From Octopus vulgaris (lineage: Eukaryota), in NCBI GenBank assembly GCA_951406725.2, contig OX597830.1, forward strand, positions 45,012,001 to 45,076,000: DNA of 64,000 bases, read 5' to 3'. The translations under genes and the position numbers were made by a program. Positions 1-64,000 of this stretch are shown one piece after another. Positions within the stretch are counted from its first letter, which is position 1. Each line of letters opens with the position of its first letter. The notes beneath the pieces are model-generated. The model was not told the DNA's origin. It made no database searches and saw only the letters and a program-made list of their open reading frames with translations.

Positions 1-163
1 TTTTATGTAAGTAAGGGTGGGATAAATTTGTGCTTGCCCTGCTCCCTAGAATTGTGCCATGATTAATAGTTTTGTATATATTTCTACTGGGTCCTTTATC
101 TGGAGGAGTAACCATTTCTTTTTCTTTCTCACCTATTTTATTTAACCCGAGTTTTTTACACTT

Positions 164-420: not shown

Positions 421-715
421 AAAAAACATTGCTTATAAAAAAATATTCACTCTTAATACAACATGAATACTTCAATAACTTAATTTACCATTGCTATCAT
501 TACATTCAAGAATGAGTGAATTATCTCTTTAAATGAATTGTATTATATATTTGCCATTACTGTATTGATAAATAAAATAACACATACTACTCACTAGTTA
601 TTATCATATAATAAACAAACAGAAGTTCATGTATGAAATTATCTTTTTTCTACTTCACTTATTACATATTTTTCTCTTATAAAAATACACACATACAGGA
701 GGAGTAAATTGTATA

Positions 716-39780: not shown

Positions 39781-42700
39781 AACCCTCAAAGTACATAAAG
39801 GAGAATAAAAGTGAGTGTGAAGACAGAGCAGGAAGAATGGGTGGGTAAAGGTCACATGCATGGAAAGATAGCGAAAGATGGTTGGAGATGGGTGAAGAGA
39901 TGTATGCAGTGAATGTTGGACAAAGATGAAGGGGTGATCAATGGTAAATATGAGTTGGGTGAAGGTGATAATAATGAAGGATGGGATTCAATAGAAATAG
40001 CTCAGTGTGACAGAACAGAAAGGGTTTAAGAGCAGCTAAATAGTAATGAAGCTATGGACAGGGAACGGATGAGAGATGGGGAAGATGCAAGAGTTGAAGA
40101 GTGGGGTGAGAGACATAGGGCTGAGCATGGAGGAGGAGATCAGAAGAAGTATGGAAGTGTAAACATAGCAAATGGTGAACAAAGGTGCAGCAAGGGATAA
40201 ATAACAGATATGAGATGGTGTTAAGAATGAGGTAGAGATATCAATAGTATATAGTTCAGAGAGGAAGTAACTAACTAATGGCAAAGAAAGAATGATCAAT
40301 GGAAGACATGGATGGGGAGAGAGACAATATTAAGACAATGAGGGAGTGACATCAAAAGGAAGTGGTTCCAGAGAAAAGAGATAACTTTTAGTAGAGAAAG
40401 ACATAAGATATTACAGATATATTACAACAGTACAATAATGCAGTAAGCAGAGTGATGGAGGGATGAACTAGGAAAAGTTTCACAAGGACATATTGACAAG
40501 GGGTTCAGTTAGGTGTATACCCATAATGCTTCTAGAACCTCTGTTTGGCCATGATGGACAGATATTCTCATGAAGGTACTGTTGGTCCTTTCACATTGGC
40601 CATTGCCTTGAGGTCGATAGAAAGATGTTCTAGTTTTTATTATCCCATTAACGTGAAAGAAGTCCTGAAATTGGGTTCCTCTGTCAGATTGGATACAACT
40701 TGATGATCCAAACGATGAAAAGAAGTGGAGCAGGTGGGAAATGACTGTTTTGGTACTCATGTCTTTACAAGGGTACCTCAAGTACTCAATGACTACTACC
40801 AATAAGTGGTGGTATTGTGTGATTGATGGCAGGGGACCAACAAAGTCGGAGAGGTGCTCCCAAGGTCTCGATACCTGTATTAATTGACGTCATTTTGCAG
40901 ATTTCATTGAGGGAGAACAGCAAGTTTTGTACTTTGCAGTAGTGAAGTAGATGGGTCACTCCTGGGTGGCATAGTTGTTTGTGAAAGGTTATTAGTGTTG
41001 TAGTGTCTCTTGTTGCTGCACATCTTGATAGCATGTCTGCTGCTTTGTTTTGAGTTCCTGGTCTATAAGAGATTGTGTAATTTGTGTCTGAGAGGTCCAA
41101 GCACCAGCATATAAGTTTTTCATTTTTGATTTTTGAAGTCACTTGCTTATTGAAGATCATTGCCACTGAGCATTGATCAGTGACGATGTTGCAGTTTGAG
41201 AAAACATGTATTAGGTAGCACCATTTGTGGAAATATTCTATGATTGCACAGGCTTCTCTCTTGACAATGGATTGGTGTTTTTCTGATTTTGAAAGTGACC
41301 TTGAATAGAAGGCCACTGGCCTTCCTTGTTGTGATAGCATACATCCCAAGGCTAGGTCAGGAGCATCTGTTTCGATAGGAAGTGGTATTCCAGTGGCATT
41401 TACCAATGCAGTCTTGAAAGATGTGATTGCTGTTTTTGCTTCTTTTGGCAGTCCTGCTTTGTTGATATTCTCTCTGGCTCTTGTAAGTGGAATGGTGAGT
41501 CCGGAACACTTAGGTATCCACTTTGCATAATATGCAAAAATTCCTATTATTCGATTTAATTCTCTCAATATTCTTGGTTCTGACATATCTAGCAGAGCTT
41601 GATACCTTTTAGGGTCAGGTTTTATTGTTGAATTTCCAATAATATGTCCAAGGAAGCTGATTTGCTTCTGAGAGAATTGACTTTTGCTCTTATTGATGGT
41701 CATGCCAGATGCTTCAGTTGCCTGGATAAATCTCCTGAGGTTATCGTCATGTTCATGATGATTTTGCCAGCTATGATGATGTCATCTAGATTGGAAAAGG
41801 CTTTCTGGAGATTGTTTCTTTTTATGAATTCATCCCTGAGACACTGAGAAATTGCTGCGGCATTGGTGCAACCAAATGGGAGGCATTTAAACTCATACAA
41901 TCTCCCCCCTGCTTCGAATGCTGTCAGTTTATAGTCTTTGGGTAGGAGTTCCACCTGGTGATATGCAGCTGTCATATTGATGTTGCTGAAAACCTTGTTT
42001 GCTGCTACTTCATTTAGAAGCTCATTGATCTGTGGGGTAGGGTAGGCATCCAGTTGTGTGTAGATATTTATAGTATTCAAGTGGTTGATCACCAGTCTTT
42101 CCTCTCCATTAGATGTCACAAAGCATTGAGCTCACCAAGGACTACAGCTTTCCTGAATTATGTCCTCTGAAAGTAACTTGTCTATTTTTGTTTAATAAAC
42201 TTTGCGTCTTGAAGTTGTAATTGGTCTGAGCTTAGAGGTCTCAATGCCAGGAAGTAGTTTATATGCAGAACATGTTAGGCTTGACATGGACAGGCAGAAT
42301 GACACAGGTTTGAGTGTGTCCTGAAGTCAATTGCAACTGCTGAGTGTTGACTGAAGATATTGATTCTGATTATGACTGGAGCTACAAGGAAATTAGTGTT
42401 ACATGTGTTATTTCCCAGTTGTAGTTTACTACTGAATTTGCATTTAATCTCCAGTATTGTGTTGTTGGTCAAGTTAACTTTTTCTGGCCAGGTACGATCA
42501 TAGTGTAATCCCCAGACCTCAAGATAATTCGCTTTTATAAATGTCCTGTCGAAAATGGCTTGTATATTGTTGTACTTAATTTCAATGGGTACCAGCCATC
42601 CTGTACTGTTTGTTACTGCTAAAGTGATGGATGATAAGGTCCCACCACTGTCTGAGTCACTCTTGGGCTCTGTGATAGCTGCTGTTTTAGGGAAGTTACA

Positions 42701-45532
42701 GTTGTTTCTTGGTGGTTTTTTTGAGAGGCAGACTTTCTCCCAGTGGCCATTCTTCTGACACCTTTTGCAAGTGAGGTTTCTCGCCTGGCATAAATTGTTT
42801 TTATGGATGTCTCCACCGCACCAAAAGCATGCTGATTTAGTGGTTGTGAGATGGGGTGGTTGATCGATACCAGCTGAGCCTTGCAATAGGTTGCGAGTGT
42901 CTTCAATGGCCACCTCCATGGTTTGAGCAAGCTTATAGAGTGTTTCTAAGCTGTCGTTTGATTACTTGAGAAGCCTTTGTTTGATTGATGGTAATTGAAG
43001 TCCAGCTACAAAGGCATCACCAATTAGAATTTCTCAGGAACGGTCTGCCATTAGGGCTGGGATTTTACACTTCTTGACCAGCACCTGAAGGCTTGACATA
43101 AATTCTTCTATAGACACATTTTCCTTTTGTTTTCAAGTTCGTAGCTTACGGTGCATCATTATATTTGAACTTTTCTTTATGAACTTTGAGTCCAGGTGTT
43201 CTACTGTTACCTCGATGGTTTCGAATTCTTCCACGATGGGGTAGATCCTTGCTCTGCAAAGGACTAAGGGTACCTCCAATAATCTTCCTTAGTCAGGTCG
43301 CTTGGTAGGGTCCTCTCAAACACTTTAGCATCCATTTATAATAAAGTTTGGGAAAGACCTTGAATAAAATTTGTCATTAGCTAGTTCAAGGGAGGCTTTT
43401 ATTCAAACTTTATATCTGCTCAACGTCTAATCCGTTAATCACAGCTGTCCAACAATTAAGATGTATTGTTTCATATTAGGTGAAGACAGTATCCATCTAT
43501 CAACGTCATTCAACACTATGCCACATTCTTGTACTCAATACAAAATAAAATAACTATATTTTTATCTATTATTTACTATTGTGCAAAGGAATTAATGATA
43601 GAATTTTATAATTCATAACAAGCACGCGACATCTGATCCCTCGAAGCATGCAAGTCACTAAGGGGGTGCACTGAACAGCACTGCTCTCTTGGTGTACCCT
43701 CAGATTTACAGTGATACACTTATTTCAAAACTTCACTTTAGCATTATTACAAATTAATGCCCACTCAGAATATTCTGAAGCTGCCCCACGCACCAAAGTC
43801 TGACGACAGGCCTGCTTCCGGAGCTTAGTTTCTGCACACATTTCTGTCATTCAACAACACAACGCACTGCCTGGCCCAGGGATTGAAACCATGATCATAC
43901 AATCGGGATCAAAACCCTAATCACTAGGATACACCGCTAGAAAACATCCCATTTTCCGTAGCGGTGTCGTATGAAATTGTCACTCATAATTATAACCCTA
44001 GTATTGATCTATTGCATTTCAATCTATTTTAGATTTAGGGTTAGAGTTAGGGTTAGGGGTGGGGGAAGGGTATCTTTTTTTCTTCGCAAATGTAAATAAA
44101 CCCAATCTGTTTCTTAAACGAGGGACATATTCATACAGCACGGAATGTTTTCACCCCAAATGGAGGTCAGCGATTGGTTAAAATTGCCGAAATGCTTGAA
44201 ATTAAAGTGGAAATATGTTACAACATATAGAATTTTCTCAATAAAGCCAAGAAAAAAATGCTGTTTTATAAACACATTCTACCAGTATACGAAGTTTAAA
44301 AGTGTTTAGTTAACTAGAAATCGTGTTGACATGTGCCGTTCAAAAGGAAAAGATCCGTTAACACCCCCCAGGCTGGTTAATTTTTGTTTTTGTTCCCGGC
44401 TGAGGATCTTTATATTGACATAAATATTTATATTCTCTATATTGGTAGTATATTTACTGATCACTATCTGGAACGTTTACACCTTCCCGTAACTTTTAAA
44501 ACCAACATACAGTAATCATCGTTGAAATATTTACGATCAAAACTGCAAAAGCTAAATACAATGTTATGGATGAAAACAAACATTTTGTAACACCAATTAT
44601 ATATGAATATACTTCTATTACATTTCAATTTGCATCTAAGATAAAGAAGGGCGAGTCCTTAGCCCTTACCGTTAGCAGTGTTCGGTGGGAGGTGGTGGTT
44701 CACAGTAGTTTACAGTTTATAGGAATAAGAAGGTTTTATTTACATACTACTCCTGTTGTTGTTTATGAATGTAGCATATAATATTAGATAAATGTCTAGC
44801 ATGCAAGCGATTAAAGAACGAATATGTAGTGTGTCTCTTAATTTAATGTTTCTGAACGAATCGTTGTTGGCTTTAGTATTAGAATTTCGAGTACAGGAGA
44901 ACCTCGGTTTTCGAACCACTCTGATCACGAATAAATCGTGGGTGTGTGTGTGTGTGTGTGTACATATCTATAAAGTACGATTTATTCGTGATTAGAGGCG
45001 TTCGTAAACTGAGGTACTACTGTATCCAAATTTGTACAAGAAAACATCGTTGCATTGCTATTTAGTATTTACGAATTAATTCAATATAGGATCGCAATAA
45101 AAACAGACAACTCAGAGCTCCTGTTGAAACATTTGTTGTGTCCTGAGAAATGTTTGATGTCCAGTGGGCAGAAAGAGCGATGGTTTGGATGTCTGGAATT
45201 CTTGTAACCAGAATAAGAACTAGGAAGAGTGAAATTAAGACGTTCATAGGTTCTGTCAAGTGGAATAATCTACATTAAGTGAAGAAGGAAAAACTTGCAA
45301 CATAGCTACGACGATTAAAGTCCACTCACCTGACGTTGGGGACAGCTTTCAGTCGTTGTCGGGTCTCCGATGCCCGGACAACATGTAAATTGCCATCGTC
45401 ATACAGAATGACAAGGATGTGGTAGCGAGGACATAGCAGAATGTTTTTAATTCCATCCAGAGACAACTCATCTTGGAAAGCGCAGAGTTTGTATTCCAAA
45501 AAGTCGGCATCGCTTTCTCCATCGTCTGCCAT
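2373..45532 (-). CDS. SPG11: Spatacsin (SPG11) gene, first 16 coding exons; the gene continues beyond the left edge of the window
   Basis: The 16 exons join with compatible phases into 3406 nt with no stop. Diagnostic blocks: QEEFVDKVMTYGGARFTDELCQMNHWGRCSLPLRALELGLKYRQIDTV, IYEASLSNAAVVWNLKEPSVTDLIREGHVLAALATILYG, YPRLHDALFP..DITVYQLM and PFDPAWLYGWQNTN. These resemble vertebrate spatacsin as recalled (e.g. WGRCSIPIHALEAG, LLEGHTLLALATTMY, PFDPSRLFGWQSAN). Confidence 0.93.
2575..2711 (+). mobile_element. RTE-family 3' tail fragment with (GAT)n
   Basis: ...ccaacccatgccagtatggaaaacagatgttaagtgatgttgatgatgatg, the same tail as the other RTE copies. Confidence 0.7.
5105..6023 (+). mobile_element. 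5'-truncated RTE-clade LINE (ORF C-terminus, 3' UTR and (GAT)n tail)
   Basis: KFRKLLPLLVTKGLSLRVKG..MLHGSETWA..ERRLRWYGHV..GERPRKTW are RTE C-terminal motifs; tail gatgatgatgat. Confidence 0.88.
6802..6960 (-). CDS. SPG11: SPG11 exon 15 (159 nt, phase 0 to 0)
   Basis: TTTTCCAG acceptor; MTASSTVPDIFQGIDMNLLEDSLLHYPRLHDALFPTSVKKVCQYDITVYQLMK; donor GTAAGT. Confidence 0.92.
7980..9300 (+). mobile_element. Highly decayed RTE LINE (EN to RT region), resuming at about 10500-11105
   Basis: GDFNGHVG-like segment near 8058 and QFGFVP.GTTDA-like segment near 9220. It continues after the inverted RTE insertion. Confidence 0.65.
9310..10452 (-). mobile_element. 5'-truncated RTE LINE with repeat-expanded 3' UTR
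   Basis: FLYLGDQV..ARIRIALAKFRELLPLL..GRGRPRKTW on the minus strand; (CAT)n tail at 9310. Confidence 0.88.
11640..12185 (-). mobile_element. RTE LINE C-terminal fragment
   Basis: RIRISWAKFRELLPLLMTKGLSLRVKGRLY..SETWA. Confidence 0.85.
12400..14290 (+). mobile_element. Decayed CR1-like LINE reverse transcriptase region
   Basis: INYHPVSLTSCITKLMES, YLDFAKAFNSVP, SGVLQESFFGPLLFVVYIND..KYAD motifs with frameshifts. Confidence 0.8.
15200..15345 (-). CDS. SPG11: SPG11 exon 14 (146 nt, phase 1 to 0)
   Basis: GGCAG acceptor; DTSPIYEASLSNAAVVWNLKEPSVTDLIREGHVLAALATILYGNDLLTS; donor GTATGG. Confidence 0.92.
15875..16035 (-). mobile_element. tRNA-derived SINE, 5' part
   Basis: Minus strand GGAGGCGCAATGGCCCAGTGGTTAGGGCAGCGGACTCGCGGTCGTAGGATCGCGGTTTCGATTCCC with A/B boxes; nearly identical to the head at 51331. 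Confidence 0.85.
16276..16376 (-). CDS. SPG11: SPG11 exon 13 (101 nt, phase 2 to 1)
   Basis: TTTTCTTCTAG acceptor; KISPKQLSLQYFESNEDMWMKMFNSFYALSINPY; donor G|GTGAGT. Confidence 0.87.
17208..17420 (-). CDS. SPG11: SPG11 exon 12 (213 nt, phase 2 to 2)
   Basis: TTTCCTCAG acceptor; NGVLDPSLL...FHQDMIAYCTKNNFGYLLWKYCQIH; donor AA|GTATGC. Confidence 0.9.
18987..19206 (-). CDS. SPG11: SPG11 exon 11 (220 nt, phase 1 to 2)
   Basis: TTTCTAG acceptor (tandem TAGCAG); PPSVMWEYLVSHNRIDAALNW...LVQTLLA; donor GC|GTATGT. Confidence 0.88.
19296..20000 (-). mobile_element. CR1-like LINE 3' end with (TTA)n tail
   Basis: PHLEFASPVWNPYL..RATKRIP..HDFRKHFFT-like coding end; related to 13900-14290, 52485-52660 and 62278-62600. 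Confidence 0.8.
20519..21522. repeat. About 120-bp inverted repeat pair (old MITE or DNA transposon ends) enclosing an RTE tail insertion
   Basis: 20519-20640 is the reverse complement of 21394-21522 (atttctacagatattctatag...aaaaatgggtaatgag). Confidence 0.7.
20745..21273 (+). mobile_element. RTE 3' UTR and tail copy
   Basis: Internal repeats of about 55-60 bp, gtggttg.cattaggaagggcatccagc core and (GAT)n tail. Confidence 0.85.
22446..22537 (+). repeat. 21-bp minisatellite, about 4.4 copies
   Basis: AATYCAAATTTGATTGCAAAG repeated in tandem. Confidence 0.9.
22802..23019 (-). CDS. SPG11: SPG11 exon 10 (218 nt, phase 2 to 1)
   Basis: TTTCCTTACAG acceptor; ...SCGEVS...VQLDWLLSWSYDTRHLVILD; donor AAG|GTATCA. 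Confidence 0.85.
23099..23367 (-). mobile_element. RTE 3' tail copy
   Basis: (CAT)n tail at left; closely matches the reverse complement of 26760-27039. Confidence 0.85.
23369..24780 (+). mobile_element. Rearranged non-autonomous Helitron
   Basis: TC(T)TCTATATATATAAAA 5' end. Helicase C-terminus at 23480-23745. Rep motifs PDLFITFTCNPKWPEI (about 24102), LPHAHILLW (HUH, about 24304) and IKYVCKYIN (Y2, about 24702). Confidence 0.82.
24936..25129 (-). CDS. SPG11: SPG11 exon 9 (194 nt, phase 0 to 2)
   Basis: TTTTCCAG acceptor; GYKPVEKYWEFALYTNDCLLRD...; donor AA|GTAAGT. Confidence 0.9.
25251..25430 (-). CDS. SPG11: SPG11 exon 8 (180 nt, phase 0 to 0)
   Basis: TTTATTTCAG acceptor; DAIEDSIRKNTVPIVQYYL...FDEASLLISNL; donor GTAAGG. 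Not listed in the ORF track. Confidence 0.88.
26736..27039 (+). mobile_element. RTE 3' tail copy
   Basis: Core and (GAT)n tail ending about 76 nt from the exon 7 donor. Confidence 0.85.
27115..27551 (-). CDS. SPG11: SPG11 exon 7 (437 nt, phase 1 to 0)
   Basis: TTTTTCAG acceptor; ...EQQSLFFAQQLL...YIAKVRTYM...WSEMDVT; donor ACG|GTAAGA. Confidence 0.9.
27730..28240 (-). mobile_element. RTE 3' UTR and tail copy
   Basis: (CAT)n tail at left and ggatgcccttcctaatgccaaccact core. Confidence 0.8.
28304..28524 (+). mobile_element. piggyBac-type MITE (221 bp)
   Basis: TTAA TSDs; TIRs CCCTTTCGTTAC / CCCTTTTGTTAC; second copy at 35977-36196. Confidence 0.85.
28891..29041 (-). CDS. SPG11: SPG11 exon 6 (151 nt, phase 0 to 1)
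   Basis: TTTTTCAG acceptor; VMTYGGARFTDELCQMNHWGRCSLPLRALELGLKYRQIDTVTIFLQTRQN; donor GTGAGT. Confidence 0.93.
30305..30428 (-). CDS. SPG11: SPG11 exon 5 (124 nt, phase 2 to 0)
   Basis: TTCAG acceptor; FKKETGLLVLG...LHQEEFVDK; donor AAG|GTTTGT. Confidence 0.88.
30615..30829. mobile_element. Palindromic MITE-like element with about 80-bp arms
   Basis: 30615-30696 is an imperfect reverse complement of 30748-30829; TA-rich flanks. Confidence 0.7.
31080..31580 (+). mobile_element. RTE LINE N-terminal AP-endonuclease fragment
   Basis: RVGTVNVG..GRSSKIVEMLERRCVDVCCIQEV..GVGVGILLAEKWV. Confidence 0.8.
32135..32681 (-). CDS. SPG11: SPG11 exon 4 (547 nt, phase 1 to 2)
   Basis: YLYDSSDGVCYLQVDL...CDFTTGNVKLKR, similar to recalled human YIFDVVDGTYVAHVDL; donor CG|GTGAGT. 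Confidence 0.88.
32682..32703 (-). promoter_or_regulatory. U12-type branch point (TCCTTAAC) and 3' splice site
   Basis: TCCTTAAC at 32703-32696 with the branch A about 16 nt from CCAG| and only a short pyrimidine run in between. Confidence 0.85.
34100..34982 (+). mobile_element. Decayed RTE LINE 3' portion with (GAT)n tail
   Basis: EDMQRLERNEDSMLHWMGNVSV..ERRLCWFGHV; tail at 34968-34981. Confidence 0.78.
35977..36196 (-). mobile_element. piggyBac-type MITE, inverted relative to the 28304 copy
   Basis: TTAA TSDs at 35973-35976 and 36197-36200; CCCTTTC..AAAGGG termini; internal sequence is the reverse complement of the 28304 copy. Confidence 0.85.
36647..36656 (-). promoter_or_regulatory. U12-type 5' splice site (GTATCCTTT)
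   Basis: Exact match to the minor-spliceosome donor consensus, in a phase that fits exon 4. Confidence 0.85.
36657..36950 (-). CDS. SPG11: SPG11 exon 3 (294 nt, phase 1 to 1), ending at a U12 donor
   Basis: TTTTTAAACAG acceptor; open frame GLELFKSTAPYLLG...TTTTTT...DWPQHTL; donor T|GTATCCTTTT. Confidence 0.8.
37298..37449 (-). CDS. SPG11: SPG11 exon 2 (152 nt, phase 2 to 1)
   Basis: (CT)n tract then TAG acceptor; RSIHYDSNEHH...LVLCKE; donor AAG|GTAAGT. Confidence 0.85.
38430..39250 (+). mobile_element. RTE 3' UTR copy with internal duplications and (GAT)n tail
   Basis: Duplicated block (about 38496-38665 and 38671-38835), several aaaagcac repeats and the standard tail. Confidence 0.82.
40500..43542 (-). 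mobile_element. Decayed Ty3/gypsy LTR retrotransposon (Mag-like), truncated within integrase
   Basis: Gag with two CCHC knuckles (CFWCGGDIHKNNLC, CKRCQKNGHWEKVC), RT (LPFGCTNA..NLDDI), RNase H (ETDA..RPVAFYSRSL) and integrase (SDRGTQF..YRPQGNGQCER) in gypsy order. Candidate 81-bp LTR at 43462-43542. Confidence 0.9.
43790..43935 (-). mobile_element. Diverged tRNA-derived SINE head
   Basis: Minus strand tagtgattaggg..atcatggtttcaatccctggg resembles the 51331 SINE head. Confidence 0.5.
44035..44070 (+). repeat. Interstitial TTAGGG-like, G-quadruplex-forming tract
   Basis: TTAGGGTTAGAGTTAGGGTTAGGGGTGGGGGAAGGG. Confidence 0.7.
44894..45022. mobile_element. 129-bp pogo/Tigger-type MITE
   Basis: TA TSDs; about 46-bp TIRs (CAGGAGAACCTCGG..CACGAATAAATCGT / CAGTAGTACCTCAG..CACGAATAAATCGT) around a (GT)n core. 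Confidence 0.75.
45330..45532 (-). CDS. SPG11: SPG11 exon 1 (203 nt coding, exit phase 2)
   Basis: GCCAAG-ATG-G start; MADDGESDADFLEYKLCAFQ...PNV; donor CAG|GTGAGT. Confidence 0.8.
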
Positions 45533-52484: not shown

Positions 52485-52660
52485 GCCTTACTTCCCTGGG
52501 CATGGACACATTGAAACTCCGACGTCTGGCAGCTGGCTTGGCAGACACCCATAAAATTATCAACCATCGTACAAACAATAACTCTGAGCACTCCACCCAT
52601 CTAACACCCGTGGACATATTTACAAAGTAAGAAAATAGCACAGCTCCCATGACTTCAGGA
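52485..52660 (+). mobile_element. CR1-like 3' fragment
   Basis: LTSLGMDTLKLRRLAAGLADTHKIIN..NTRGHIYKVRK. Confidence 0.75.
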
Positions 52661-55478
52661 TTTCTTTATTGCCCGCACAGAAGGAGCCAACAGAGAAGGG
52701 ACAAACACAAGACATGTGGGGTCATATATATATAAATATTTATTCTAATTTAAATTAATTCTATGTAATTATGCAGCTGAGGATTGCTCTGCATTTAAAT
52801 TGATGTAATGGTTGCATTGTTCAATTAAATGGAGTTGCATGAAATGATCGTACTGCATTACAATAAAAAAAAAATGAATGCGGGGTCAGTGTAACGAATG
52901 TGATCACACAAAAATGAAGTTAAAAATCTGTGAATATAATCAATGAAAGGACAGACAATAAAAGAGTATAATGGAATGGAGAGACGGTTACCACCCCGCA
53001 AGACACGTTCCTCCACTGATCCTTTTTATAAACATTTCATGGATGCACTCACGTCGGACCTTTCATTCCCAACATGCGAACCACTTGCATCCATCTTTTA
53101 TCGTACATGTCCGATGACAGTTACTTCCTTTCTAGCCTTATCTTCCTTCTACGAAGGAAGATACAAAAAGTTGACCAAACCTAGGCCAGAAAAGAAAGTA
53201 CCTGTCACCAATCCTTTCGTCCTTGCTTTCCATATCGCCTCCTTCTCTATAGCGACCACAATAAGGAAACAAACCTAACCTTCTCTGTTCAATGAGGGAG
53301 GTGGAACAATTTTTATAACAGATTCGGACGACAGCTTTTCTCTTCCAAGCCGTGACAGCAGTCGTTCGACGTAAACCCACGAAATCGTCGCACACTGCCA
53401 AATTACGAGCGGAACAGTTTCATTGTCCAGTCCACATTTTGGGCAGGTGGGTGAGCACGATGCACCATGCCTTGAGAGCTTATCGTAAATTGGTAAGGCT
53501 CCTCGGTAACATTGCCAGGTGAGGGGCCTCTGGAAGTTGTCCAGAGGTCCCGGCCCGATCGTCCTTTGAAACAGGCTGCCCAGGATTTCCCCCAACGCTT
53601 CATCACACTTGGCCTCTACTAACCCTCTATAGAACGACGAGGTGGAACTACGCTATTAGAATTGCACATGCGACAGAAGAGTGCGAGTACCTTGTGACAC
53701 TCGGTCTGCCAAGCACCCAACTTTTGTCTACGTTTGATCTATGGTTCTAGCTCACCAAAACTAGTGAACCTATGAAGCAACAGTTTGACGAACGGAGACC
53801 ACCCCCTTTCACCATCCAGGTAAAGCCAAAGATGCCTTAGTCTCAGCGTGCGCTTGTGCATCCTCAGCCACGATATCCCTAGCCCATCCTTAAGCGGTTG
53901 TTGGCAAGAGATAGAGCGCCTTACAAGAGGTCCGCTGCCCTCCCACAAAAAGCAGAAGGATAATCGTTCCATCTTGCTTAGCCACGAATCGGGGCAAGGC
54001 ACGATGGTCAGACGGTAGGTGACCACAGATGCGATAAACGCATTTGCAACCTCCGCCCTTCCTTTCAGGGATAGCCATCGTCCAGACCAGGTCTGGGTTA
54101 GATGGGCCACCCTGCTCGTAACCTCGCTCCAAATTTTCTCTAACTGGAGGTCTGGCCCGAACCAGATCCCGAGCATTTCACTTTGTTAGACGGCATCGAC
54201 TTGCCTCTCCAGGTACCGAGCTGTAAGCCGACCGAATTTTCTCGGTTGATTTTTGCTACTGCCACCGCCTCGTATTCTTTAACGGCTTCACCTACCCACT
54301 GTAGGTGTCTCGCCTCAGATACGATGATGGTGATGTCAGCTGCGTAAGCCGATACTGATCTTCCACTACCTAGATCTCGCGGGACGCCACTCATACCCTC
54401 AGACTTTTGCAGTAAAGGCTCAAGAGCCAGCATATATAGCAGAAGGGAGAGCGGACATCATTGACAAACTGAGCGCTTGATAGAGAACGGCTCCGAAAAG
54501 AAACCGTTCACCTGAACGATCGAGTCGATGTTGCTGTATAAGGATATGATTCAACCGCGAAAGATTGGGCCCAGCCCAACTGCCGCGAGGACCGTCACCA
54601 GATACCGATGGTCCACCCTATAGAAAGCTTTAGCCTGGCCTAAATGTACCTGCGCCCCGCCCTTGCCAGATACCTTATTAACCCGCTCTAAAGTATAGCG
54701 TATAAGATGGAGATTGTTGTGTATGAACCGGCCTAGGACGGCACAGGTTTGTGCCTCCCCAACCAGTCCACCCACAACCTGCGCCAATCTTTTTGCGAGT
54801 ACCTTGGCCAAAATCTTCAGCTCTGCAGTAAGCAGAGTGATGGACCGACAATTATCTATAATGTCCCCCTTTTTTGGGTCCTTTCTAAGCAGTGTCACAA
54901 CTCCCCGACTCTCAGATCTGGGAATGAACCCATTCTGTTACCAGCTTGTAAAAACACATGCCAGTAAGTGTCCAAACAAGTCTGACATACCGTAATAAAC
55001 TTCGTAGGAAAGACCATCTAGTCCCGGCGACCTGTCCCCACGGCGATCCGACAAGACGTCCTCTACTTCCGCAACTGTGATCGGTCTTTCACAGCATTCC
55101 GCTTCCTGTCCCGAGAGACGCGGCAAACCGTTGAGGAAGTCCGTAGGGTTTACCTTGCGCTCCGGTTCATCGCCCCTCCCGAAAAGCCGGCTGAAATACT
55201 CGTAAAAACCTTACACGATTGTTTGTCATAGATCTTATTCTGGCATCGTTGCCATGTTGGGCTTCTGTCACACGGGCCTATCTCACAGTGTTGATCCCTT
55301 CTCGATCCCTTGTACGAACCTTAGCCCTCGTGCTTAGCTTCGAGGTGTTGGTTGAGCGCCAATCTCGCGGCCGACACTTGGGGTGCACTGCCACTCTCCA
55401 ATGCCTCTTCTAGGGCCTTAACTGAGTAGATCCTTCTTAGCTACTAATTCCTTGCTAAATCTAATTGACTCAATTTTG
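52661..55478 (-). mobile_element. 5'-truncated Tx1-clade (L1 group) LINE: ORF2 RT, zf-RVT and 3' UTR
   Basis: RSPGLDGLSYEVY, RSITLLTAELKILAKVLAKRL, GQAKAFYRVDHRYL, SAYAADITI, LSLKGRAEVAN and CPKC..ET; AATAAA tail at about 52665. Confidence 0.9.
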
Positions 55479-56088
55479 AAGAAACAGCGACACTAACCAA
55501 AATGGAGGAAGAGAAAGACAGAGAGAAGGCTCCAAGAGAGGAACAAGGGAAAGGCAAACAAGAGAGAAGGCCGAGAAAGTACAGATGAAATTTCGTTACA
55601 TATGCTAAGAGCACAGCAACTGAAAGAATGATAACGAAGTTTAAAACCGTTATATGGGTTAAGTTGCCTACAGATACGTACAGAGAAAATGTGGAAGCCA
55701 TTGTAATTGATAAAGACAGATACAACAGGTTGAAGGAAATGTGTAACATTGGTCTGCCGGGATTTGCAGTGGAGTTTGACGTACTGTCGCCAATAGTGGA
55801 ATTAAGAGAACTAGAACCATTCAGAAGATATTAAAAAAAAGTAAAATTGTTCTAAAACATAGAAAGAGAGAACGGAACGATGCTAGAGGAGAAAGGACAA
55901 GAAAAAGAGAGATTGTAAACTACAAGTAAAAACGTTCAAATGGTACTGCATGAGAGTGGGGCTCATGCAGTCATTTCATTTTTCATTCGTTTTGTTTTTG
56001 TCCCCACTGAGGTGTTCTGTTTATCTTTGTGCTGTTACCTCTGTGTTTGACCCTTGTGGTCGTAATAAAAATAAAAAATTAAAAAATT
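55479..56088 (+). mobile_element. 5'-truncated ORF1-only (HAL1-like) element
   Basis: FVTYAKSTATERMITKFKTVIWVKLP..IDKDRYNRLKE is homologous to the C-terminus of the 56112-58436 ORF. Stop at 55834, then about 230 nt of UTR, AATAAA at 56064 and an A-rich tail. Confidence 0.75.
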
Positions 56089-56445
56089 ATATAATGTTAA
56101 GTTAAACATGCTTCTTTATTTTGGCACTACAGGGGGGACCGCACAAGGACAGTCAGAACACCAAAGTGGGGACAAAAAACATAAAACGAATGAACATGAA
56201 AAAAATGTATAGTGAAATCGATGATGATGGAATGACTGCATTGAACCCCACTTTCAAGCAGTACCATTTAACTGCTAATTTAGACAATTATTGAAAACTT
56301 TTCTTTTTATCTTTTTGCATATTTTTTCCCCATTTTTTACAAAGTCTGTTTCCTTCTTTTTTTCCTTTCTCTTTTCTTTTTTTAATTTTTTTCCTTTCTA
56401 AAGGATTCCCTTATTACCAGTCATTAAAGTTAACGCCTCGTTTTA

Positions 56446-56676
56446 GGCGACGAGCTGGCAGAATCGTTAGCACGCCGGTCGGAATGCTTAGCGGTATTTC
56501 GGCTGCCGCTATGTTTTGAGTTCAAATTCCGCCGAGGTCGACTTTACCTTTCATCCCTTCGAGATCGATAAATTAAGTACCAGTTACGCACTGGGGTCGA
56601 TATAATCGACTTAATCCGTTTGTCTGTCCTTGTTTGTCCTCTCTATGTTTAGCTCCTTGTGGATAGTAAAGAAATA
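56446..56676 (+). mobile_element. Meta-domain-like SINE, copy 1 of tandem pair
   Basis: GGCGACGAGCTGGCAGAA head, GAGTTCAAATTCC B-box and cctttcatcccttcgagatcgataaattaagtacc core. Confidence 0.85.
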
Positions 56677-56696
56677 GGTATTAAACTCCTCGTTAA

Positions 56697-56926
56697 GGCG
56701 GCGAGCTGGCAGAAACATTAGCACGCCGGGCGAAATGCGTAGCCGTATTTCGTCTGCCGCTACGTTCTGAGTTCAAATTCCGCCGAGGTCGACTTTGCCT
56801 TTCATCTTTTCGGGGTCGATAAATTAAGTACCAGTTACGCACTGGGGTCGATGTAATCGACTTAATCCGTTTGTCTGTCCTTGTTTGTCCCCTCTATGTT
56901 TAGCCCCTTGTGGGTAATAAAGAAAC
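56697..56926 (+). mobile_element. Meta-domain-like SINE, copy 2 of tandem pair
   Basis: Same family as copy 1; flanked by gtatta(a)actcctcgt duplications. Confidence 0.85.
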
Positions 56927-58440
56927 GAGTATTAACTCCTCGTATTCAACTACTTTTGGTAGTCCCTCAAATTCAATTTCTTCCCCATAAGTGTTCACAT
57001 CTTCTCCAAATAGTTCTTGCAACCTTCTGTACCTTTCTTTATCAATCATCATACCCTTGGTGTGTTCCGGGCAACTCTCTACTGGGATTTTAATTCTTAT
57101 AGTACCTTTGAATTTCGTTATTTTCCGCTCTATGATGGTACTTTTCACATATGTGACCACATGCCACTTTTTCTTATTCGCATGTATTTGTTTATGCTCC
57201 GGAACTGGGCTGTCCATGCTATTCGTTTCCCTTAGTTCCTCCATCTGTACACAACCATAATCGTCCACTCTATGTTGTGATACTACTGCTGCTATATCTG
57301 ACCAGTTCCTCTGTACCTCCTCTATTTTCTCCTCTACTTCCTTCATTCGTTTTTGGTTCTCTGTCGGAGAGCTCACCCGCCATTTCCTCTTTCGCCTATT
57401 TACGACCGTAAACGTCTCCTCTTTGTTTTCCTTATTTCTGGCCCCTCCTCTTCGGCGGGCTGTTCTTCGCGTTGTTGTTCCTCTACTGAACTTTCCTGCT
57501 GGGGGCACCTTGCTCTCAGGTGCCCTTTTTGTCTACATAGATAACATGTTGGAGGTCTTCCCTCCACCACCACTATTAGCGTGGTAAAAGAATATCTTCT
57601 TCTGGTAGAAGAATCTCTTCTCCAATTCCGCGTAGTTCTTTTAACCCAACTTGAATCGCCATCTCTAGGCCGTAGCCCCACAATTAACTTTCTTCGTTCT
57701 AGTTACTTTTAGGATCTTTGCATCTTCCTCCATTCCATGCATGACTGCTGCCACCAGCCATGTGTCTCTTCAATCTCGAAGGGCACTCTGCCGACTCTCA
57801 CTCTGGCAACACGTTTGTCACAATACATCGGCAGCAGCATCCACTCTTGTGTCCTTATCGGCTCAATGGAGTGGTTAATAGCGTCCTCCTCGCTGAAGAA
57901 TCTAATCTCCACTGTGCCGTGTATAGAAGGTGGTTAGTCTTTTCCCGTCTCCTAAACACTCCTCTATTGCCTCTATTGGGGCAATCTCTATTTTTTGGTA
58001 GCGGTTGATAACGTCCTGTACACAACCGTTCTTCTTGCTACATTCTTCGTCACTTCTGGTGGGGTCAGCTTTAAGCTGGCCCCTTCCTTTTGTAACAATT
58101 CATTTCCTTCTTTCCATTTTTTCTCCTCTATTTCTATTTCGCAAACTTCAAGGGTGTTGGCCGTAATACCTTGTGTAGTTGCGGCTGCATAGCTTGTACC
58201 ACGCTCCATTTCTCCTCTTCTCACTACTTCACCCATAACTGGGGAAGAAACAACTTCCGAAACAGGCAAAACAACGACAGAAATTCAACAATTTAACAAT
58301 TTAACGAATCTTGGTTAACCCGCACGGGGAGACCTACAACAATATATAATAATAGTGTGTAACAATAACAGTGTGTAACAATTTTAACTCACGTTTAAAG
58401 AAACCAACACCCCAAAATTGCGATCCGACAATGTTATAAT

Positions 58441-61400
58441 TTTTTATTTCCCAGAAGGGAGCAGCAAATCTGATATGGGGTCAAATTAACGAATGATTTT
58501 ACACAATTATGAATTTTAAAATTTACAAGAATGTTAATAGTTCGAATGATAAGACATACTGAAAGACATTACAGATGGAGTGAGGAGGCGGGTTAAATTC
58601 GGACCCCATGAGACCCGCCTCACCACTGATGTCTGAGACTCATTCTGCGTCGCATTCATGACGCAACATTCGTGCAACATTCTTCCATCGATTGTTGAAC
58701 ATTTTCGCAGACATGCATTTTCTGTCTAGACTTATTTTCCTTTTCAAGTGAAAGGCGAAGAAATTCACCAAATCAGGGCCAGAGATGAAGATGCCTGCCT
58801 TTAACCCTTTCACTCTCGTCTTCCAAATCACCTCTCTCACAATTGTTACTACGACGAGAAAACAATTCTTACCTTCTTTCGATAGGAAATCCGGCGGGTC
58901 AATTTTTACTATTGACTCAGTCGATAGCTGTACTCTTCCTGTACTTGACAACAGTTGTTCAGCATAAATCCACACGTCTGACACATCCGAACACTGAACA
59001 ACAGCGTGTAGGACGGTTTCCCTATCCCGCTCACATCTTGGACAGGTCGGTGGGTCAGGGCCACCATGCCTTGTGAGCTTGTCCCAAACAGGTAAGGCTC
59101 CCCAGTAACACTGCCATGCCACAGACTTGAGAAAGTTGTCCAGGGTCTTCGGCCCGAATGTAAGTTGGAACAGACTGGCCAGCTGATTATCATCGAGACC
59201 TAGGGCTTCCCCTAAGGTATCGTCACATTCCGCCTCTACCAACCCTCTATAAAAGAATGCGGTAGAGCCACTTCCACAGGCAATGCCTGAGTGACGGAAT
59301 AGCAGGAGAGCCTAGCGACATTCCGTAGACCATGTACCCAACTTTAATCTACGATAGAACCAGGTTTCCCGTCTATCGAATCTTTTGAACCTGAGAAAAA
59401 TCCGTTTCGCCAGCGGGGACTACACCCGTTCACCATCTAGATAGAACCACAGATGTATCAACCTCAGCGCATGTCTGCACATCATTAGCAAAGGCATCCC
59501 TAGCCCACCCTTTAACGGTTGTTGGCAGCAAATAGAGCGTCTCACAAGTGGTCTCGAGCTCTTCCACAAGAAGTGGAAGAGCTTCCTCCCCAGCTTGATC
59601 AACCACGAATCAGGGAAAGGAACGACGGTTAGGCGGTAGGTGATGACCGATGCGATGAACACATTGGTCACCTCCGCTCTCCCTTTCAGGGATAGCCACC
59701 ACCAAGACAAGGTTTGACTGTGTGGGCTACCCTGCTCGATACCTCGGCCAAATTCTTCTCTATTTGGAGGTTTGGCCCAAACCAGACTCTTAGCAACTTA
59801 ATCGGACCCTCTGTCCAACGTCCCTCGATGCTGTCAGGAGGCATCGACTTACCTCTCCAGGTGCCGAGCTGCAAGCTAACTGACTTTTCACGATTAATCT
59901 TTGCTCCTGCCACCGTCTCATATTTCTCAATGGCTTTGCCTACCCTCTGTGTGTGATCCATTTCAGTTACGATGATGGTGATGTCATCTGCGTACGCTAA
60001 AACCGACTTTTCACAACCTGGATGTCTCGGGATGCCGCTCAATTTTTGCAGCAATGGCTCAAGAGCCATCACATACAAAAGCAGAAGAGCGGACACCCAT
60101 GACGAACCGAGCTTAGATAAAAAGCCGTTCACCCGAATTACCGAGTCCATGTTGTCATAAATTTCAAGAAACCACCTGAGGGAGCCAAAACCCAGGCCGA
60201 ACGGTGCCAAAACAGACACCAGGTAATTATGGTCAGCCCTATGAAAAGCCTTTGATTGGTCTAAATGGACCACTACTCTTCCCTTGTCAGAATCGTTATT
60301 AAACTCCTCTACAGTGTACCATAGAAGATGGAGATTATCCTGAATGGTTCTGCCGGGAATGACACATGTCTATGCCTCCCCGATCAAACCATCCGCGATA
60401 CACGCCAATCTTTTCGATAACATTTTGGCCAAAATCTTCAACTCTGCGTTTAGCAGCGTGATGAGCCGAACATTGTTAATGGAATCCCCCTTGTCCGGGT
60501 CCTTTCTGACGGCATCACCACTCCCCGGCGCACAGATCTAGGAATAAAACCATTCTGCTGCTAGTTCGCGTAGATATTCGCCAGCAGGGGCCCGAACAAG
60601 TCTGGCATACTCTTATACAGCTCATAGGGTAGACCATCCAGTCCCGGCACCTTACCCGCTCCGCAGTCTGCCATAGCCTCAATTACCTTTACTACACTCT
60701 GCATCCCACCCCGAGATGCGCGGCAGCCCGGCGAGGAAGTCCGTTAGGTCCCTCCTACCATCCGATCCGCCGACCCCCGAAAAGCTGGGCGAAGTGCTCC
60801 TGAAAGGCCTCACATATCTCCTCGGGTTCGTTTATCAACTTACCTCGCTGGTTCGTCAAAGACCGAATTGTGCCATCGTTACCACGTCGGGATTCCCCCA
60901 CTCGGGCCCAGCCTGCGACTTGATTCCTTTACAACCCACTGCATGAAGCATAGCCCTGGCAATGCAACCCATATGTTGGGGATCGAGGTGCTGGTTTAAC
61001 GCCAGTCTCTTGGTCGTCACCTGAGCCGCAGAACCAGTTTCCATTGCTTCCTCTAAGTCCTTAGCTAATGCTAATACCCTCCTAGTTTCTCAAGTCGCTA
61101 AACCTATGCTATATCTAATAGACTCAAATTTAATGTTTCGCTTGAGGGCATACCACCATTTGTTATTAATAACGGATCCGGTTAATATCCTCTGAATCAA
61201 TAACTTAATCCGGTCTGTGTACTCCTTAATCGCTAAAAGAGACGTATTAAGTTTCCAGTAGCCGGACCCTCTATTATATAGCTTATCTATGTCGAGCTTA
61301 CAGGTGACCATATTGTGATCACTGTAGTTGACCGGGTAAAACTATGGCCACTTAGCTATATTTCTATCTGCTTTTCTAATTAATACTCTATCTAGGTACG

Positions 61401-63993
61401 ACCTGGAAGATCCGTCGCTGCTTGACCATGTTCACAATGGAGCGTTCGGAAATTCCAACCTATATGTATCTGCTAGCTCAAAGCGACTCAGCAGATCCTG
61501 GAAGCAAGGAACACTTTTTCTATCAGAACGCGAGCCAACATAATCTACGCGTGCTACGCAGATTGTGTTATAGTCTCCTAGCACAACTAGAGAATGTGAT
61601 GTACCAAGAAACTTCTCCAGGTTCCGAAAATACTCACTTTGCCCTTTTCTTGTGGGTGTATAAATTGCAACCAGTCTGATAATCTTACCACGGCTGAGCG
61701 TCAAGTCCATGACGACCAGCCTACCTTCTGGGTCTGAAACAAATTAACTTTTTCTCAGAAACCCGGTTTTTTTTACAGGACCAACACCCCGCTCCCGCCT
61801 ATAGGACAGCCCGGAGAGGAAAAACTCTTGTAACCATCTAAAAGCGGGAGCAGTTCTCTTGGCCCCGTTAACTGGGTTTCCGTAGCAACAATAACATCCA
61901 AATTGTGCGACCTGATGTCATTAAGGAAGCGACTTTGCTTCCAGCTTGACACCAGGCTATGCACATTTATACAACCTACGTGAATGCTAACCATTACTTA
62001 CTTCATTCTCCTCTTTTTCCTTTTCTCGGGCTCGTGGGATATTTTGACATAGGCCCTCGTACATGGACTTGCTGAAGTCCAGCCTTGGAGGGTCCATGTC
62101 TGTGGAGTGGTAAGCCTTCAACATTTGAAGGTTACGCGAGTCAATAGTATAAATTGCAATACATTCCGGAAGCTTTACATAATGTTTTTTGTATTTCTCC
62201 GCTGTCGGAATGGTTTTAAGTCGTGTCGTTAATTTTTAATTTTTTGCGTTAATCGCCACTAAGTAAAGTTTGTTTTATAATAATAATAATTGTGTACAGT
62301 GCTCAGGTGCACTACAACTCATCTAAAGTGTATATATAATCAGGTGTAGTTTCGGCGGATTTCGGAAAGCATGAGGGCCTTAAAAGATGCAGTGTCATGG
62401 CAGTCAACAACTGACGCAGGCAGTTTATTCCATGCTTCAGCAACTCTGAGCGTGAAAAAATGTTTCCGAAAGTCATGGGAGCTGTATTGTTTTCTGACTT
62501 TGTAGGCATGTCCACGTGTGTTAGACACATGGAGATCAAAAAGGTGTTCAGTGTTGTTGTTGGTGAGGTGGTTGATAACTTTGTGGGTGATAACTTTTCT
62601 GTCGCCATGTTTTGGGACTCTTTCTTAGGACTAGAAGGGAGGGATGATTTTCTGGGGCTGGGAGGAGGGGATATCCGGGGGCTGGAGCGGGGATATCAGT
62701 GCTGAAAGGAGGGGATATCATCATTTTTTAGGTGAGTAGTGGATAGAAGGGGCAGTCTGTACTCCGTGTGTGTCTGCGTAGGGGAATTTTTTTGTTTGTG
62801 CTGAGAGTTGAGGGGATGGGATTGGGATTCTTTCTTTTTGGGACCTTTCTACTTTTTACAACTGACCATTCGTATGCTGTTCCCTCACTCCTGGCTGGTT
62901 GAATATTTTCACTTCTGGGAGTTTTGTGAGTTGACCTCCTGCCTCTCTGCCTTTTCTGTATTATTTTTTGTTGTCGTCTCCACCTTACGGGTAGGGCAAT
63001 TTGCCCGAATGTGGCCCTTTTCCACACACTCGTAGCAACGGGGTCTTCTCCCCTCTACCATTACCCGCATGATGGTTTCTTCTCCCAAGTAAATGTTCTT
63101 CGCAATCTCTTGCAGCGTTTGTGGGGGCCACTTGAATAATTACTTCTAGGCCCTGTCCCTTCCAGTTTTGCTGGTTGATCTTCGAGGCCTCCAGCACAAT
63201 AATTTTGTCTTCAAGCCCCATTATAAGGGCTGCCTATAACCAGGTAATATCTATTTCTGGCGGGATCTCGTCGACTGTTATGCGTGACGTGTGTCTGCTT
63301 AAATAAGTTGGCAGCAACACGATATCTGCTGTTTTTAATGGTTTTACTGAATGTATCCTTGCTTTCTCTTCGCTTTTGAAGTAGACCACAATGGTCGCGA
63401 ATCTTTTTCCCCTGGTCAGATTGGTTGGAAGCATTTCTCCAGATCCTCTTTTGACGCCTTACCGACTTTTTCCCTTTATAGTAAGGCTTTTAAACACTAT
63501 AATTTTTTTTGCAGTGTTTTCAATAATTTCACAAGGGAGGGTGTCTTTTGCATCATTTCCCTCCCCGGCAAAAATATTTTGGTGTTGCATTAGCGCTTCA
63601 GGTTCAATATTTAGCCTTTCTTTCTGAATGCCAGCCGCCGCTGCAAAATTAATTTTCTTAGGTTGTGCCATCAACTCTTCTGTCGTAGGCGCTTAAGATT
63701 TTCGAACTTTCAGATTCTTCAGCTTTCTTCCCGACACTGGGCATTTTTCTGCACTTTTCCATTTTATCCTCTTCAGAGGAAGTATTCATATTTTTTTGGG
63801 GAAAAAAAGAAACCAGATAATTAGTTAATTCTCCCCTCACAGAGTGGAATCAAGTCCACTACGTCTGCGAAACGCAGAACGTAATTGATATAAGAGAACA
63901 ACACAAGAAGAAAAGAGCTCAACAGTACCAGTAACGACAGCAGTTTCACCAAGCACACCAACAAAAATTCAATAATGCGATCCGGCAATATTA
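58441..63993 (-). mobile_element. Near full-length decayed Tx1-clade LINE (ORF1 CCHC; ORF2 APE-RT-zf)
   Basis: ORF1 about 63840-62000 (FAAAA, VMVEGRRPRCYECVEKGHIRANCP). ORF2 61994-58640 (GCINVHSL..ATET, VLGDYN, SRYLDRVL, DHNMV, GYWKLN, DQSKAF, AYADDITI, CPRC..ETVLHAVVQC). Tail aaataaaaa at 58441. Confidence 0.92.
62278..62600 (-). mobile_element. CR1-like 3' end inserted into Tx1 ORF1
   Basis: SNTRGHAYKVRKQYSSHDFRKHFFTLRVAEAWNKLP; gtgcacctgagcactgtacacaattattatt tail, the same as 19296-19345. Confidence 0.85.
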
Positions 63994-64000
63994 AAGTTAA

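What the first reader, a model, noticed from the sequence alone, without database searches (positions are those of the whole stretch)
55479..58436. ORF1-only (HAL1-like) retroelement family derived from a Tx1-clade LINE
Seen: two distinct, diverged copies lie tail-to-tail about 25 bp apart. Each goes from the stop of a gag-like ORF1 directly into the same 230-280 nt 3' UTR and AATAAA tail with no ORF2 remnant. The ORF aligns by eye with ORF1 of the neighbouring autonomous-type LINE (SYAAA/NFAAA; VEIRFFSEEDA..LLPMY / IVVYFKSEEKA..LLPTY; VEGRPPTCYLCRQKGH / VEGRRPRCYECVEKGH). Both ORF1-only copies share a C-terminal domain (VTY.KST..ER.ITKFK..IDK.RY.RL.E). Established: HAL1 elements, which encode ORF1p only, are known mainly from vertebrates. 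Inference: two divergent copies with the same architecture indicate a long-lived non-autonomous family that keeps its own RNA chaperone and borrows ORF2p, rather than a one-off deletion.
Basis: partly seen in the sequence, partly recalled or inferred. Interest (0 to 1): 0.7.

Follow-up and report, generated by a model that had tools for sequence, protein, structure and literature searches.

The report
Octopus half-LINEs landing on transcription starts
These are two broken copies of an old octopus jumping-gene family that carries only a predicted RNA-binding protein and no copying enzyme, and most copies that could be mapped sit about 30 bases behind a TATA box, mostly that of another transposon, whose promoter they likely take over.

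Summary
The ORF1-only family is real and genome-wide. Of 101 distinct C-terminal-domain ends, 75 run into the tail and none into ORF2. ORF1 shows purifying selection between three subfamilies (pN/pS 0.10-0.42).

Copy A is a 5'-truncated stub. The neighbouring LINE is a distant relative (about 36% ORF1 identity, no C-terminal domain), not the parent.

Main new result: insertion is positional. The target-site duplication starts 24-33 nt after a TATA box in 10 of 14 unrelated target sequences (control 5%). A held-out set gave 5 of 10. Targets include several Gypsy-type LTR families and a Penelope-like repeat; autonomous relatives hit TATA+30 of a mariner. Both LTRs of one element carry different family members at that site. 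Promoter borrowing, trans-mobilisation and tethering to the transcription machinery are inferred. The window's own copy B has no TATA there.

ORF1-only LINEs and Tx1 insertion into other transposons are known; I found no paper on TATA+30 targeting. This scan's unchecked notes describe similar elements elsewhere in this genome and a TATA-homing Tx1 in other genomes.

The parts
55479..56087 (+). Copy A: 5'-truncated ORF1-only element (A-type subfamily): end of linker, C-terminal domain, 3' UTR, A-rich tail
55589..55834 (+). C-terminal domain of copy A and stop codon (TAA 55832-55834)
55835..56069 (+). 3' UTR (229 nt) and AATAAA of copy A
56093..56108 (-). 3' copy of copy B's probable target-site duplication; the 5' copy lies at 63987-64000 and just beyond the window, pushed away by the inserted LINE
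   Evidence: read from the sequence
56110..58436 (-). Copy B: full-length but decayed ORF1-only element (B subfamily)
56115..56397 (-). 3' UTR (277 nt) and AATAAA of copy B; stop TAG at 56400-56398
56430..56943 (+). Two tandem SINE copies inserted in the last codons of copy B's ORF1, with a 12-nt repeat at 56430, 56682 and 56932
56945..57184 (-). C-terminal domain of copy B (predicted beta-alpha-beta-beta-alpha-beta fold)
57505..57546 (-). CCHC zinc knuckle of copy B
   Evidence: Pfam zf-CCHC in a relative
57560..58209 (-). N-terminal part of copy B's ORF1 (ATG at 58209); predicted as tandem RRM-like domains from a relative
58210..58436 (-). 5' UTR of copy B, with a retained GTGAGT...TAG motif pair (58392-58334)
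   Evidence: read from the sequence
58445..63985 (-). Autonomous-type L1/Tx1-group LINE (decayed) inserted at the 5' junction of copy B, with a duplication of about 20 nt at 58419-58439 and 63976-63995
52680..55477 (-). 5'-truncated ORF2 fragment of a second autonomous family (68% identical to the first), head-to-head with copy A, with its own tail

Best explanation
The two copies belong to an old family of ORF1-only, non-autonomous LINEs that likely borrow ORF2p from an autonomous L1/Tx1-group relative; most mappable copies are inserted in sense about 30 nt downstream of a TATA box, at the predicted transcription start of another transposon, and are likely transcribed from that promoter. Shown: the architecture is 5' UTR, ORF1 (predicted RRM-RRM, CCHC knuckle, charged linker, extra domain of about 80 aa), 3' UTR, AATAAA tail. 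There are target-site duplications of 8-26 nt, purifying selection on both ORF1 parts, a fixed distance to TATA in unrelated targets, and head-to-tail stacking at the 5' end of earlier copies. Inferred: target-primed reverse transcription nicks the template strand at the start site. This leaves TATA and start site in front of the new copy and puts the copy's poly(A) signal ahead of the host's remaining sequence, so the element gains a promoter and a 5' LTR would be disabled. The site is most likely picked by contact with the Pol II pre-initiation or open complex (about 0.5), helped by similarity between the element's head and its usual target.
For: Architecture: 75 of 101 distinct domain ends reach the tail and 0 reach ORF2. 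Of 16 tail-plus-LTR-start pattern hits, 15 carry a family-like tail and none has ORF2 upstream. Selection: pN/pS 0.10-0.26 (N-terminal part) and 0.10-0.42 (C-terminal domain) between subfamilies; changes shared by copies 0.12-0.40 against private changes 0.45-0.73. Targeting: TATA 22-36 nt before the duplication in 13 of 18 copies against 8.3% of control sites; 5 of 10 in copies chosen by 3' UTR alone, at 30-32 nt; 10 of 14 unrelated target clusters with a strict TATA pattern against 5%. 8 of 30 copies of one LTR family are filled at the same site, 4 of them new to that search, and 22 are empty. Both LTRs of one element hold different family members there. Autonomous relatives: 5 of 46 3' flanks lie in a mariner whose empty copies have TATA 29-35 nt upstream in 21 of 29, at exactly 30 nt in 19. 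Promoter use: copy L045 begins with 23 nt copied from the start region of a different LTR family, 3 nt from that family's insertion point (score 17, null at most 8). The terminal 50 nt or so resemble those of the autonomous LINEs and the SINE, by eye.
Against: The window's own copy B has no TATA 30 nt upstream. 4 of 14 target clusters lack a strict TATA. One common target takes insertions about 50 nt after a TATA-like run. The TATA pattern and the distance windows were chosen after seeing the data. In 5'-truncated copies no duplication or TATA could be resolved. Only 1 of 25 heads clearly comes from a foreign promoter. No autonomous element with an A/B-like ORF1 or the C-terminal domain was found: every ORF1 followed by ORF2 was at most 44% identical. 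The sampled autonomous families use other targets, so the partner is unidentified. No transcription start was mapped. One autonomous subfamily targets a SINE at a site with no TATA.
Confidence: 0.72

Rival explanations
1. The family is ORF1-only, but site choice comes from a sequence-reading endonuclease plus homology between the element's head and its target, as in classical Tx1 elements. The TATA distance is a by-product of cutting at initiator-like sequence, with no contact to the transcription machinery.
For: Subfamilies favour particular LTR families (B with one, A2 with another). Many duplications contain CAGT or GAGT near their start. Tx1 families that prefer particular transposons, including LTR elements, are described and the endonuclease is said to decide (PMC4494074, passages). 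Tandem stacking fits sequence mimicry.
Against: The 14 target clusters share no alignable sequence and some duplications begin with unrelated letters. A four-letter motif cannot give 8 of 30 filled sites at one position. Single subfamilies use more than one target cluster. The distance is kept in LTR, Penelope-like and mariner targets.
Confidence: 0.33
2. The elements land at transcription starts but carry their own downstream promoter (the conserved 5' UTR motifs), so the host TATA is not needed for expression.
For: The 5' UTR is conserved, with a GTRAGY motif 29-78 nt before a conserved AG motif in 49 of 85 5' ends. Copies in tandem or at TATA-less sites exist. An unchecked scan note proposes a DPE-like motif for a related element.
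Against: The L045 head begins at another LTR's predicted start. Heads vary with the target. No internal promoter was tested.
Confidence: 0.25
3. The LTR-plus-element unit was amplified as a composite by the LTR retrotransposon, or the upstream TATA region is part of the element.
For: Many B copies share about 100 nt of upstream sequence.
Against: 22 of 30 LTR copies are empty. The LTR continues after the tail behind a duplication. The two LTRs of one element hold different inserts. Upstream sequences fall into 14 unrelated clusters.
Confidence: 0.03
4. The two copies are local deletion products of an ordinary LINE.
For: Internally deleted copies of the neighbouring family do exist (5 of 30 loci).
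Against: 0 of 101 domain ends lead to ORF2. Subfamilies diverged under selection. The neighbouring family lacks the domain.
Confidence: 0.02

Closest known systems
ORF1-present non-autonomous LINEs: HAL1 (L1 clade), HeT-A (Jockey), Ag-Sponge (CR1) (PMC5786205 and PMC5753468, passages)
   Same: One ORF1 protein, no RT or endonuclease, a LINE-type tail, several subfamilies; presumed mobilisation in trans.
   Different: Mollusc host. CCHC-type ORF1 with an extra C-terminal domain not found in the sampled autonomous relatives. Insertion at a fixed distance from TATA. The passage read lists no Tx1-derived case.
Target-preferring Tx1 LINEs: Tx1L in Tx1D, Tx1-Mar and SINEU in Mariner-N4_AMi, Tx1-8_Crp and Tx1-4_AMi in LTR retrotransposons (PMC4494074, passages)
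   Same: Insertion into other transposons, tandem stacking around a duplication, a non-autonomous passenger, and suggested transcription from the flank.
   Different: Those are described as preferring one target family. Here many unrelated promoters are hit at one distance from TATA, and the passenger encodes its own ORF1.
Dictyostelium TRE5-A and TRE5-A.2 (PMC3159450, passages)
   Same: Non-LTR element placed at a fixed distance from a promoter complex; an ORF1-only derivative is mobilised in trans; ORF1p binds TFIIIB subunits in vitro.
   Different: Pol III tRNA genes, about 50 nt upstream of the gene; here Pol II-type TATA promoters, at the predicted start itself and in sense.
Yeast Ty3 (PMC6673722, search listing only)
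   Same: Integration next to transcription start sites.
   Different: LTR element with an integrase, Pol III genes.

Membership tests
ORF1-present non-autonomous LINE (HAL1-like) | ORF1 followed by 3' UTR and tail with no ORF2, across copies | tested here: met
   75 of 101 domain ends reach the tail, 25 have no tail found, 1 too short, 0 reach ORF2
ORF1-present non-autonomous LINE (HAL1-like) | Dispersed copies made by retrotransposition (duplications, A-rich tail, 5' truncations) | tested here: met
ORF1-present non-autonomous LINE (HAL1-like) | ORF1 kept under selection in the active lineages | tested here: met
   pN/pS 0.10-0.42 between subfamilies. CCHC and C-terminal domain lie in one predicted protein in O. 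bimaculoides records. In this genome majority sequences have a frame break in the A-rich linker.
ORF1-present non-autonomous LINE (HAL1-like) | An identified autonomous parent or partner sharing its ends | tested here: inconclusive
   Terminal 50 nt or so similar by eye; ORF1 about 36% identical; no closer autonomous element among 431 loci
ORF1-present non-autonomous LINE (HAL1-like) | Mobilised in trans by ORF2p | not testable with these tools
   needs a retrotransposition assay
HAL1 in the strict sense | Derived from mammalian L1, with L1-type ORF1p | tested here: not met
   Octopus element with CCHC knuckle and predicted tandem RRM-like domains; the make-up of L1 ORF1p is recalled
Tx1 clade | Partner ORF2 of APE-RT-zinc type in the L1 group | tested here: met
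   Pfam RVT_1 and zf-RVT, weak Exo_endo_phos; a full-length relative matches human L1 ORF2p best among solved structures
Tx1 clade | RT groups with named Tx1 elements rather than L1 in a tree | tested here: inconclusive
   No hit named Tx1; no reference sequence was available for a tree
Tx1 clade | Target preference, often for other repeats | tested here: met
TRE5-like promoter-complex targeting | Fixed distance to a core promoter element in unrelated targets | tested here: met
   10 of 14 clusters; 5 of 10 held-out copies
TRE5-like promoter-complex targeting | Element protein binds the TBP-containing complex | not testable with these tools
   no host TBP sequence was fetched; needs a binding assay
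TRE5-like promoter-complex targeting | Targets are Pol III tRNA genes, insertion upstream | tested here: not met
   targets are LTR, Penelope-like and other TATA promoters

The most novel reading that the evidence does not exclude
This octopus LINE group finds RNA polymerase II start sites as such, by docking on the pre-initiation or open complex, and nicks at TATA+30 whatever the sequence. The ORF1-only members use their own ORF1p to steer a borrowed ORF2p to LTR and Penelope promoters, which the sampled autonomous families do not use. They thereby live without a promoter or enzyme of their own and switch off the transposons they land on.
Probability: 0.4. Interest if true: 0.82.

Novelty: new variant of a known kind. 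Interest (0 to 1): 0.6.

Why it matters
ORF1-only LINEs raise the question of why a passenger keeps ORF1. Here the ORF1-only members and the sampled autonomous families occupy different targets, which makes the idea that ORF1p chooses the site testable. A LINE that cuts at a fixed distance from TATA in unrelated promoters would be a Pol II counterpart of TRE5 and Ty3 targeting, which I did not find described. It would also be a parasite of other transposons that could block LTR elements, a dense record of past germ-line start sites, and a lead for promoter-directed integration.

Tried and rejected
C-terminal domain identity: no Pfam family; no Foldseek match at E 0.001 or better; best VIA Z 5.8, generic ferredoxin-like and KH-like folds; atlas hits under 0.9.

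Expression: no RNA holder listed. The contigs laid cannot show a start or splicing and are not used for or against.

Programmed frameshift between knuckle and C-terminal domain: all three majority sequences shift frame in the linker. However, 7 of 16 scorable copies are in frame, the B break is a variable single-A loss, and O. bimaculoides records are continuous. Judged slippage, not excluded.

Candidate partners: L232 is a truncated copy followed by unrelated DNA. L336 is an ORF2 cut mid-way and joined to a truncated A copy, with no duplication found around the whole. L308 is a LINE tail followed by a stub.

Copy A plus the inverted ORF2 fragment as one twin-primed insertion: no shared duplication was seen by eye. 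A tree of 56 copies timed out, so subfamilies rest on identity clustering. The anchor rule failed on the held-out set and was replaced by an anchor-free search, whose null reached score 9 or more in 17 of 150 trials. Pfam did not confirm the Penelope-like target; that label rests on recalled motifs. No complex prediction was run.

Literature: ten searches showed no paper on ORF1-only Tx1 elements or on a LINE inserting at TATA+30. Bao and Jurka 2010 is not held, Repbase and Dfam were not available, and no supplements were read, so a prior description there is possible.

Full report
Observation. Two things were missed. Copy B carries two tandem SINEs in the last codons of ORF1. Copy A is a 5'-truncated stub of 117 codons joined head-to-head to an inverted ORF2 fragment, and its front half is not in the window. 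Homologous proteins with a name come from Octopus bimaculoides (9 of 10 looked up), so the host is taken to be an octopus.

A family, not a deletion. Searches of the own genome gave 382, 338 and 515 candidates for A, B and the UTR. Only 40 are scored per search, so these are not copy numbers. Across 431 loci, 101 distinct C-terminal-domain ends were found: 75 lead to a tail (64 within 206-361 nt), 25 had no tail by my pattern, 1 was too short, and none leads to ORF2. 56 near-full copies cluster into subfamilies A1, A2, B and smaller groups. Copies differ from their subfamily majority by 5.5-22%, and I saw no intact copy among the loci read. Between subfamilies synonymous sites are near saturation while pN/pS is 0.10-0.26 for the N-terminal 231 codons and 0.10-0.42 for the 78-codon C-terminal domain. 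Changes private to one copy give 0.45-0.73. The family therefore replicated for a long time with a working ORF1.

The protein. A model of a 404-aa O. bimaculoides relative has a folded N-terminal region whose best matches are tandem RRM proteins (E about 5e-4), a knuckle, a disordered linker and a folded C-terminal domain. The domain alone models at pLDDT 83 as beta-alpha-beta-beta-alpha-beta with only generic matches. A profile finds 34 proteins among 1.84 billion, mostly with the domain at the C terminus. An RNA-binding role is a guess from the fold. The domain is absent from the ORF1 of the neighbouring LINE family, whose ORF1 is only about 36% identical. No ORF1 more than 44% identical to A/B was followed by ORF2. 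The ORF2 is of the L1 group; Tx1 is plausible but not shown.

Insertion site. Dispersed B copies shared upstream sequence that began with TG and held a TATA box. A search with it returned an LTR of 178-229 nt ending in CAACA, in several copies followed by a primer-site-like sequence. 22 of 30 copies were empty and 8 were filled at one site, 4 of which were already in my set. In one locus both LTRs of an RT-bearing element hold different family members at that site, one in the 5' LTR and two in the 3' LTR, which shows independent targeting. Of 85 distinct 5' ends, 18 directly follow another element's tail and 27 of the other 67 carry an LTR-start-plus-TATA signature, against 1% of control sites. 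Among copies with a duplication, TATA lies 22-36 nt upstream in 13 of 18 against 8.3% (rows scoring under 8 and tandem rows were dropped, and the pattern was widened after seeing data). Copies picked by 3' UTR alone gave 5 of 10 with the same pattern, at 30-32 nt. Two of the failures are doubtful duplications, and three lie in a repeat hit about 50 nt after a TATA-like run. Collapsing 25 sites (three doubtful or tandem rows left out) into 14 unrelated clusters, 10 have a strict TATA 24-33 nt upstream in at least one member, against 5% per control site. Targets are several short-LTR families, a longer LTR and some unidentified sequences; copies without a mapped duplication also follow a TATA in a Penelope-like terminal repeat. 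Two pattern searches for any tail joined to an LTR start gave 16 hits: 15 with a family-like tail and none with ORF2 in the 1.5 kb upstream.

The autonomous relatives. Their 3' flanks cluster on other targets. One is a fixed site in the abundant SINE. Another is the promoter of a mariner, recognised from its translated transposase, where 21 of 29 empty copies have TATA 29-35 nt upstream of the insertion point, 19 of them at exactly 30. Among 75 ORF1-only flank entries (a few counted twice) and 46 autonomous flanks, the only shared cluster is the 5' end of a B copy. So TATA+30 insertion does not need the C-terminal domain. The different target sets mean either that ORF1p or the RNA ends steer the choice, or that the true partner was not sampled.

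The window itself. Copy B inserted first. The LINE at 58445-63985 then inserted at B's 5' junction, duplicating about 20 nt, and B's own duplication is split between 56093-56108 and the far end of the LINE. No TATA lies 30 nt upstream here, so this copy is one of the exceptions. The order of the remaining events (A, the SINEs, the second ORF2 fragment) is not resolved.

Mechanism. By the standard model of target-primed reverse transcription (recalled), the left edge of the duplication marks the first nick, on the strand that Pol II would read, at about the position where TATA-dependent transcription starts (recalled). The new copy keeps TATA and start site in front of it, and its own start is a target again, which explains the tandem arrays. 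Direct sign of promoter use is limited to one clear case among 25: L045 begins with 23 nt from the start region of a different LTR family. I favour recognition of the transcription complex over pure sequence recognition because the targets do not align, but the subfamily-target pairing and a frequent CAGT or GAGT keep the sequence rival alive.

What is known. HeT-A, HAL1 and Ag-Sponge are named as ORF1-present non-autonomous LINEs of the Jockey, L1 and CR1 clades (PMC5786205, passages; PMC5753468, passages). Crocodilian Tx1 families prefer a Mariner or particular LTR elements, and transcription from the flank is suggested (PMC4494074, passages). TRE5-A.2 is an ORF1-only derivative mobilised in trans, and TRE5-A ORF1p binds TFIIIB subunits (PMC3159450, passages). 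L1-Tx1 is listed among expanded coleoid repeats without further detail (PMC8967140, passages). Ten searches showed no report of TATA+30 targeting by a LINE; Repbase, Dfam, Bao and Jurka 2010 and supplements were not seen. After my reading was formed, the scan's unchecked notes showed similar ORF1-only elements in this genome and a TATA-homing Tx1 in other genomes. They are not counted as support.

Verdict. A real, old ORF1-only LINE family: a known lifestyle in a new lineage. The positional targeting of unrelated TATA promoters is the part worth following. New variant of a known kind, interest 0.6.

Noticed in passing
L123-L137 5' ends; L065, L066, L071, L076 3' flanks: A subfamily of the neighbouring autonomous LINE inserts at one fixed site inside the abundant SINE of about 235 nt, and the SINE ends in nearly the same tail as the LINE.
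   Followed up: partly
L402-L431; L072, L077, L078, L083, L312: Both autonomous families insert 30 nt after the TATA box of an abundant mariner; L321 and L327 lie shortly before what looks like another mariner transposase start.
   Followed up: partly
window 58334-58392 and 49 of 85 5' ends: A conserved GTRAGY...AG pair, mostly 29-45 nt apart, is retained in the 5' UTR of genomic copies. It looks like a tiny unspliced intron or a U1-binding site near the start.
   Followed up: partly
L124, L125, L128, L138, L139: Internally deleted copies of the autonomous LINE (ORF1 plus the end of ORF2 or the tail); L128 and L138 resume at the same ORF2 position, which is also where the L336 chimera breaks.
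   Followed up: partly
L057:2378-3150, L046, L124, L213: A further subfamily with a divergent C-terminal domain and another 3' UTR; L057 and L046 join a B-type front to it, suggesting module swapping.
   Followed up: partly
L342, L344, L347, L353, L360, L374, L377, L382: An unidentified repeat ending before microsatellites takes insertions at two positions, about 30 and 50 nt after a TTTAAAA run.
   Followed up: partly
window 62310-62590 and 52500-52655: Fragments of another LINE-like repeat (also at 19450-19750) interrupt the LINE's ORF1 and flank the second ORF2 fragment.
   Followed up: no
window 40500-42960 (-): Decayed LTR-retrotransposon-like gag, RT and integrase frames.
   Followed up: no
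window 146-466, 23144-23824; 836-1586: Helicase-like fragments typical of Helitrons and a Tc1/mariner transposase remnant (labels recalled from motifs).
   Followed up: no
L041-L043, L054 (C1, 21.1-22.4 Mb); L284-L286 (C28): Near-identical copies with shared flanks, which point to segmental duplication rather than new insertions.
   Followed up: no
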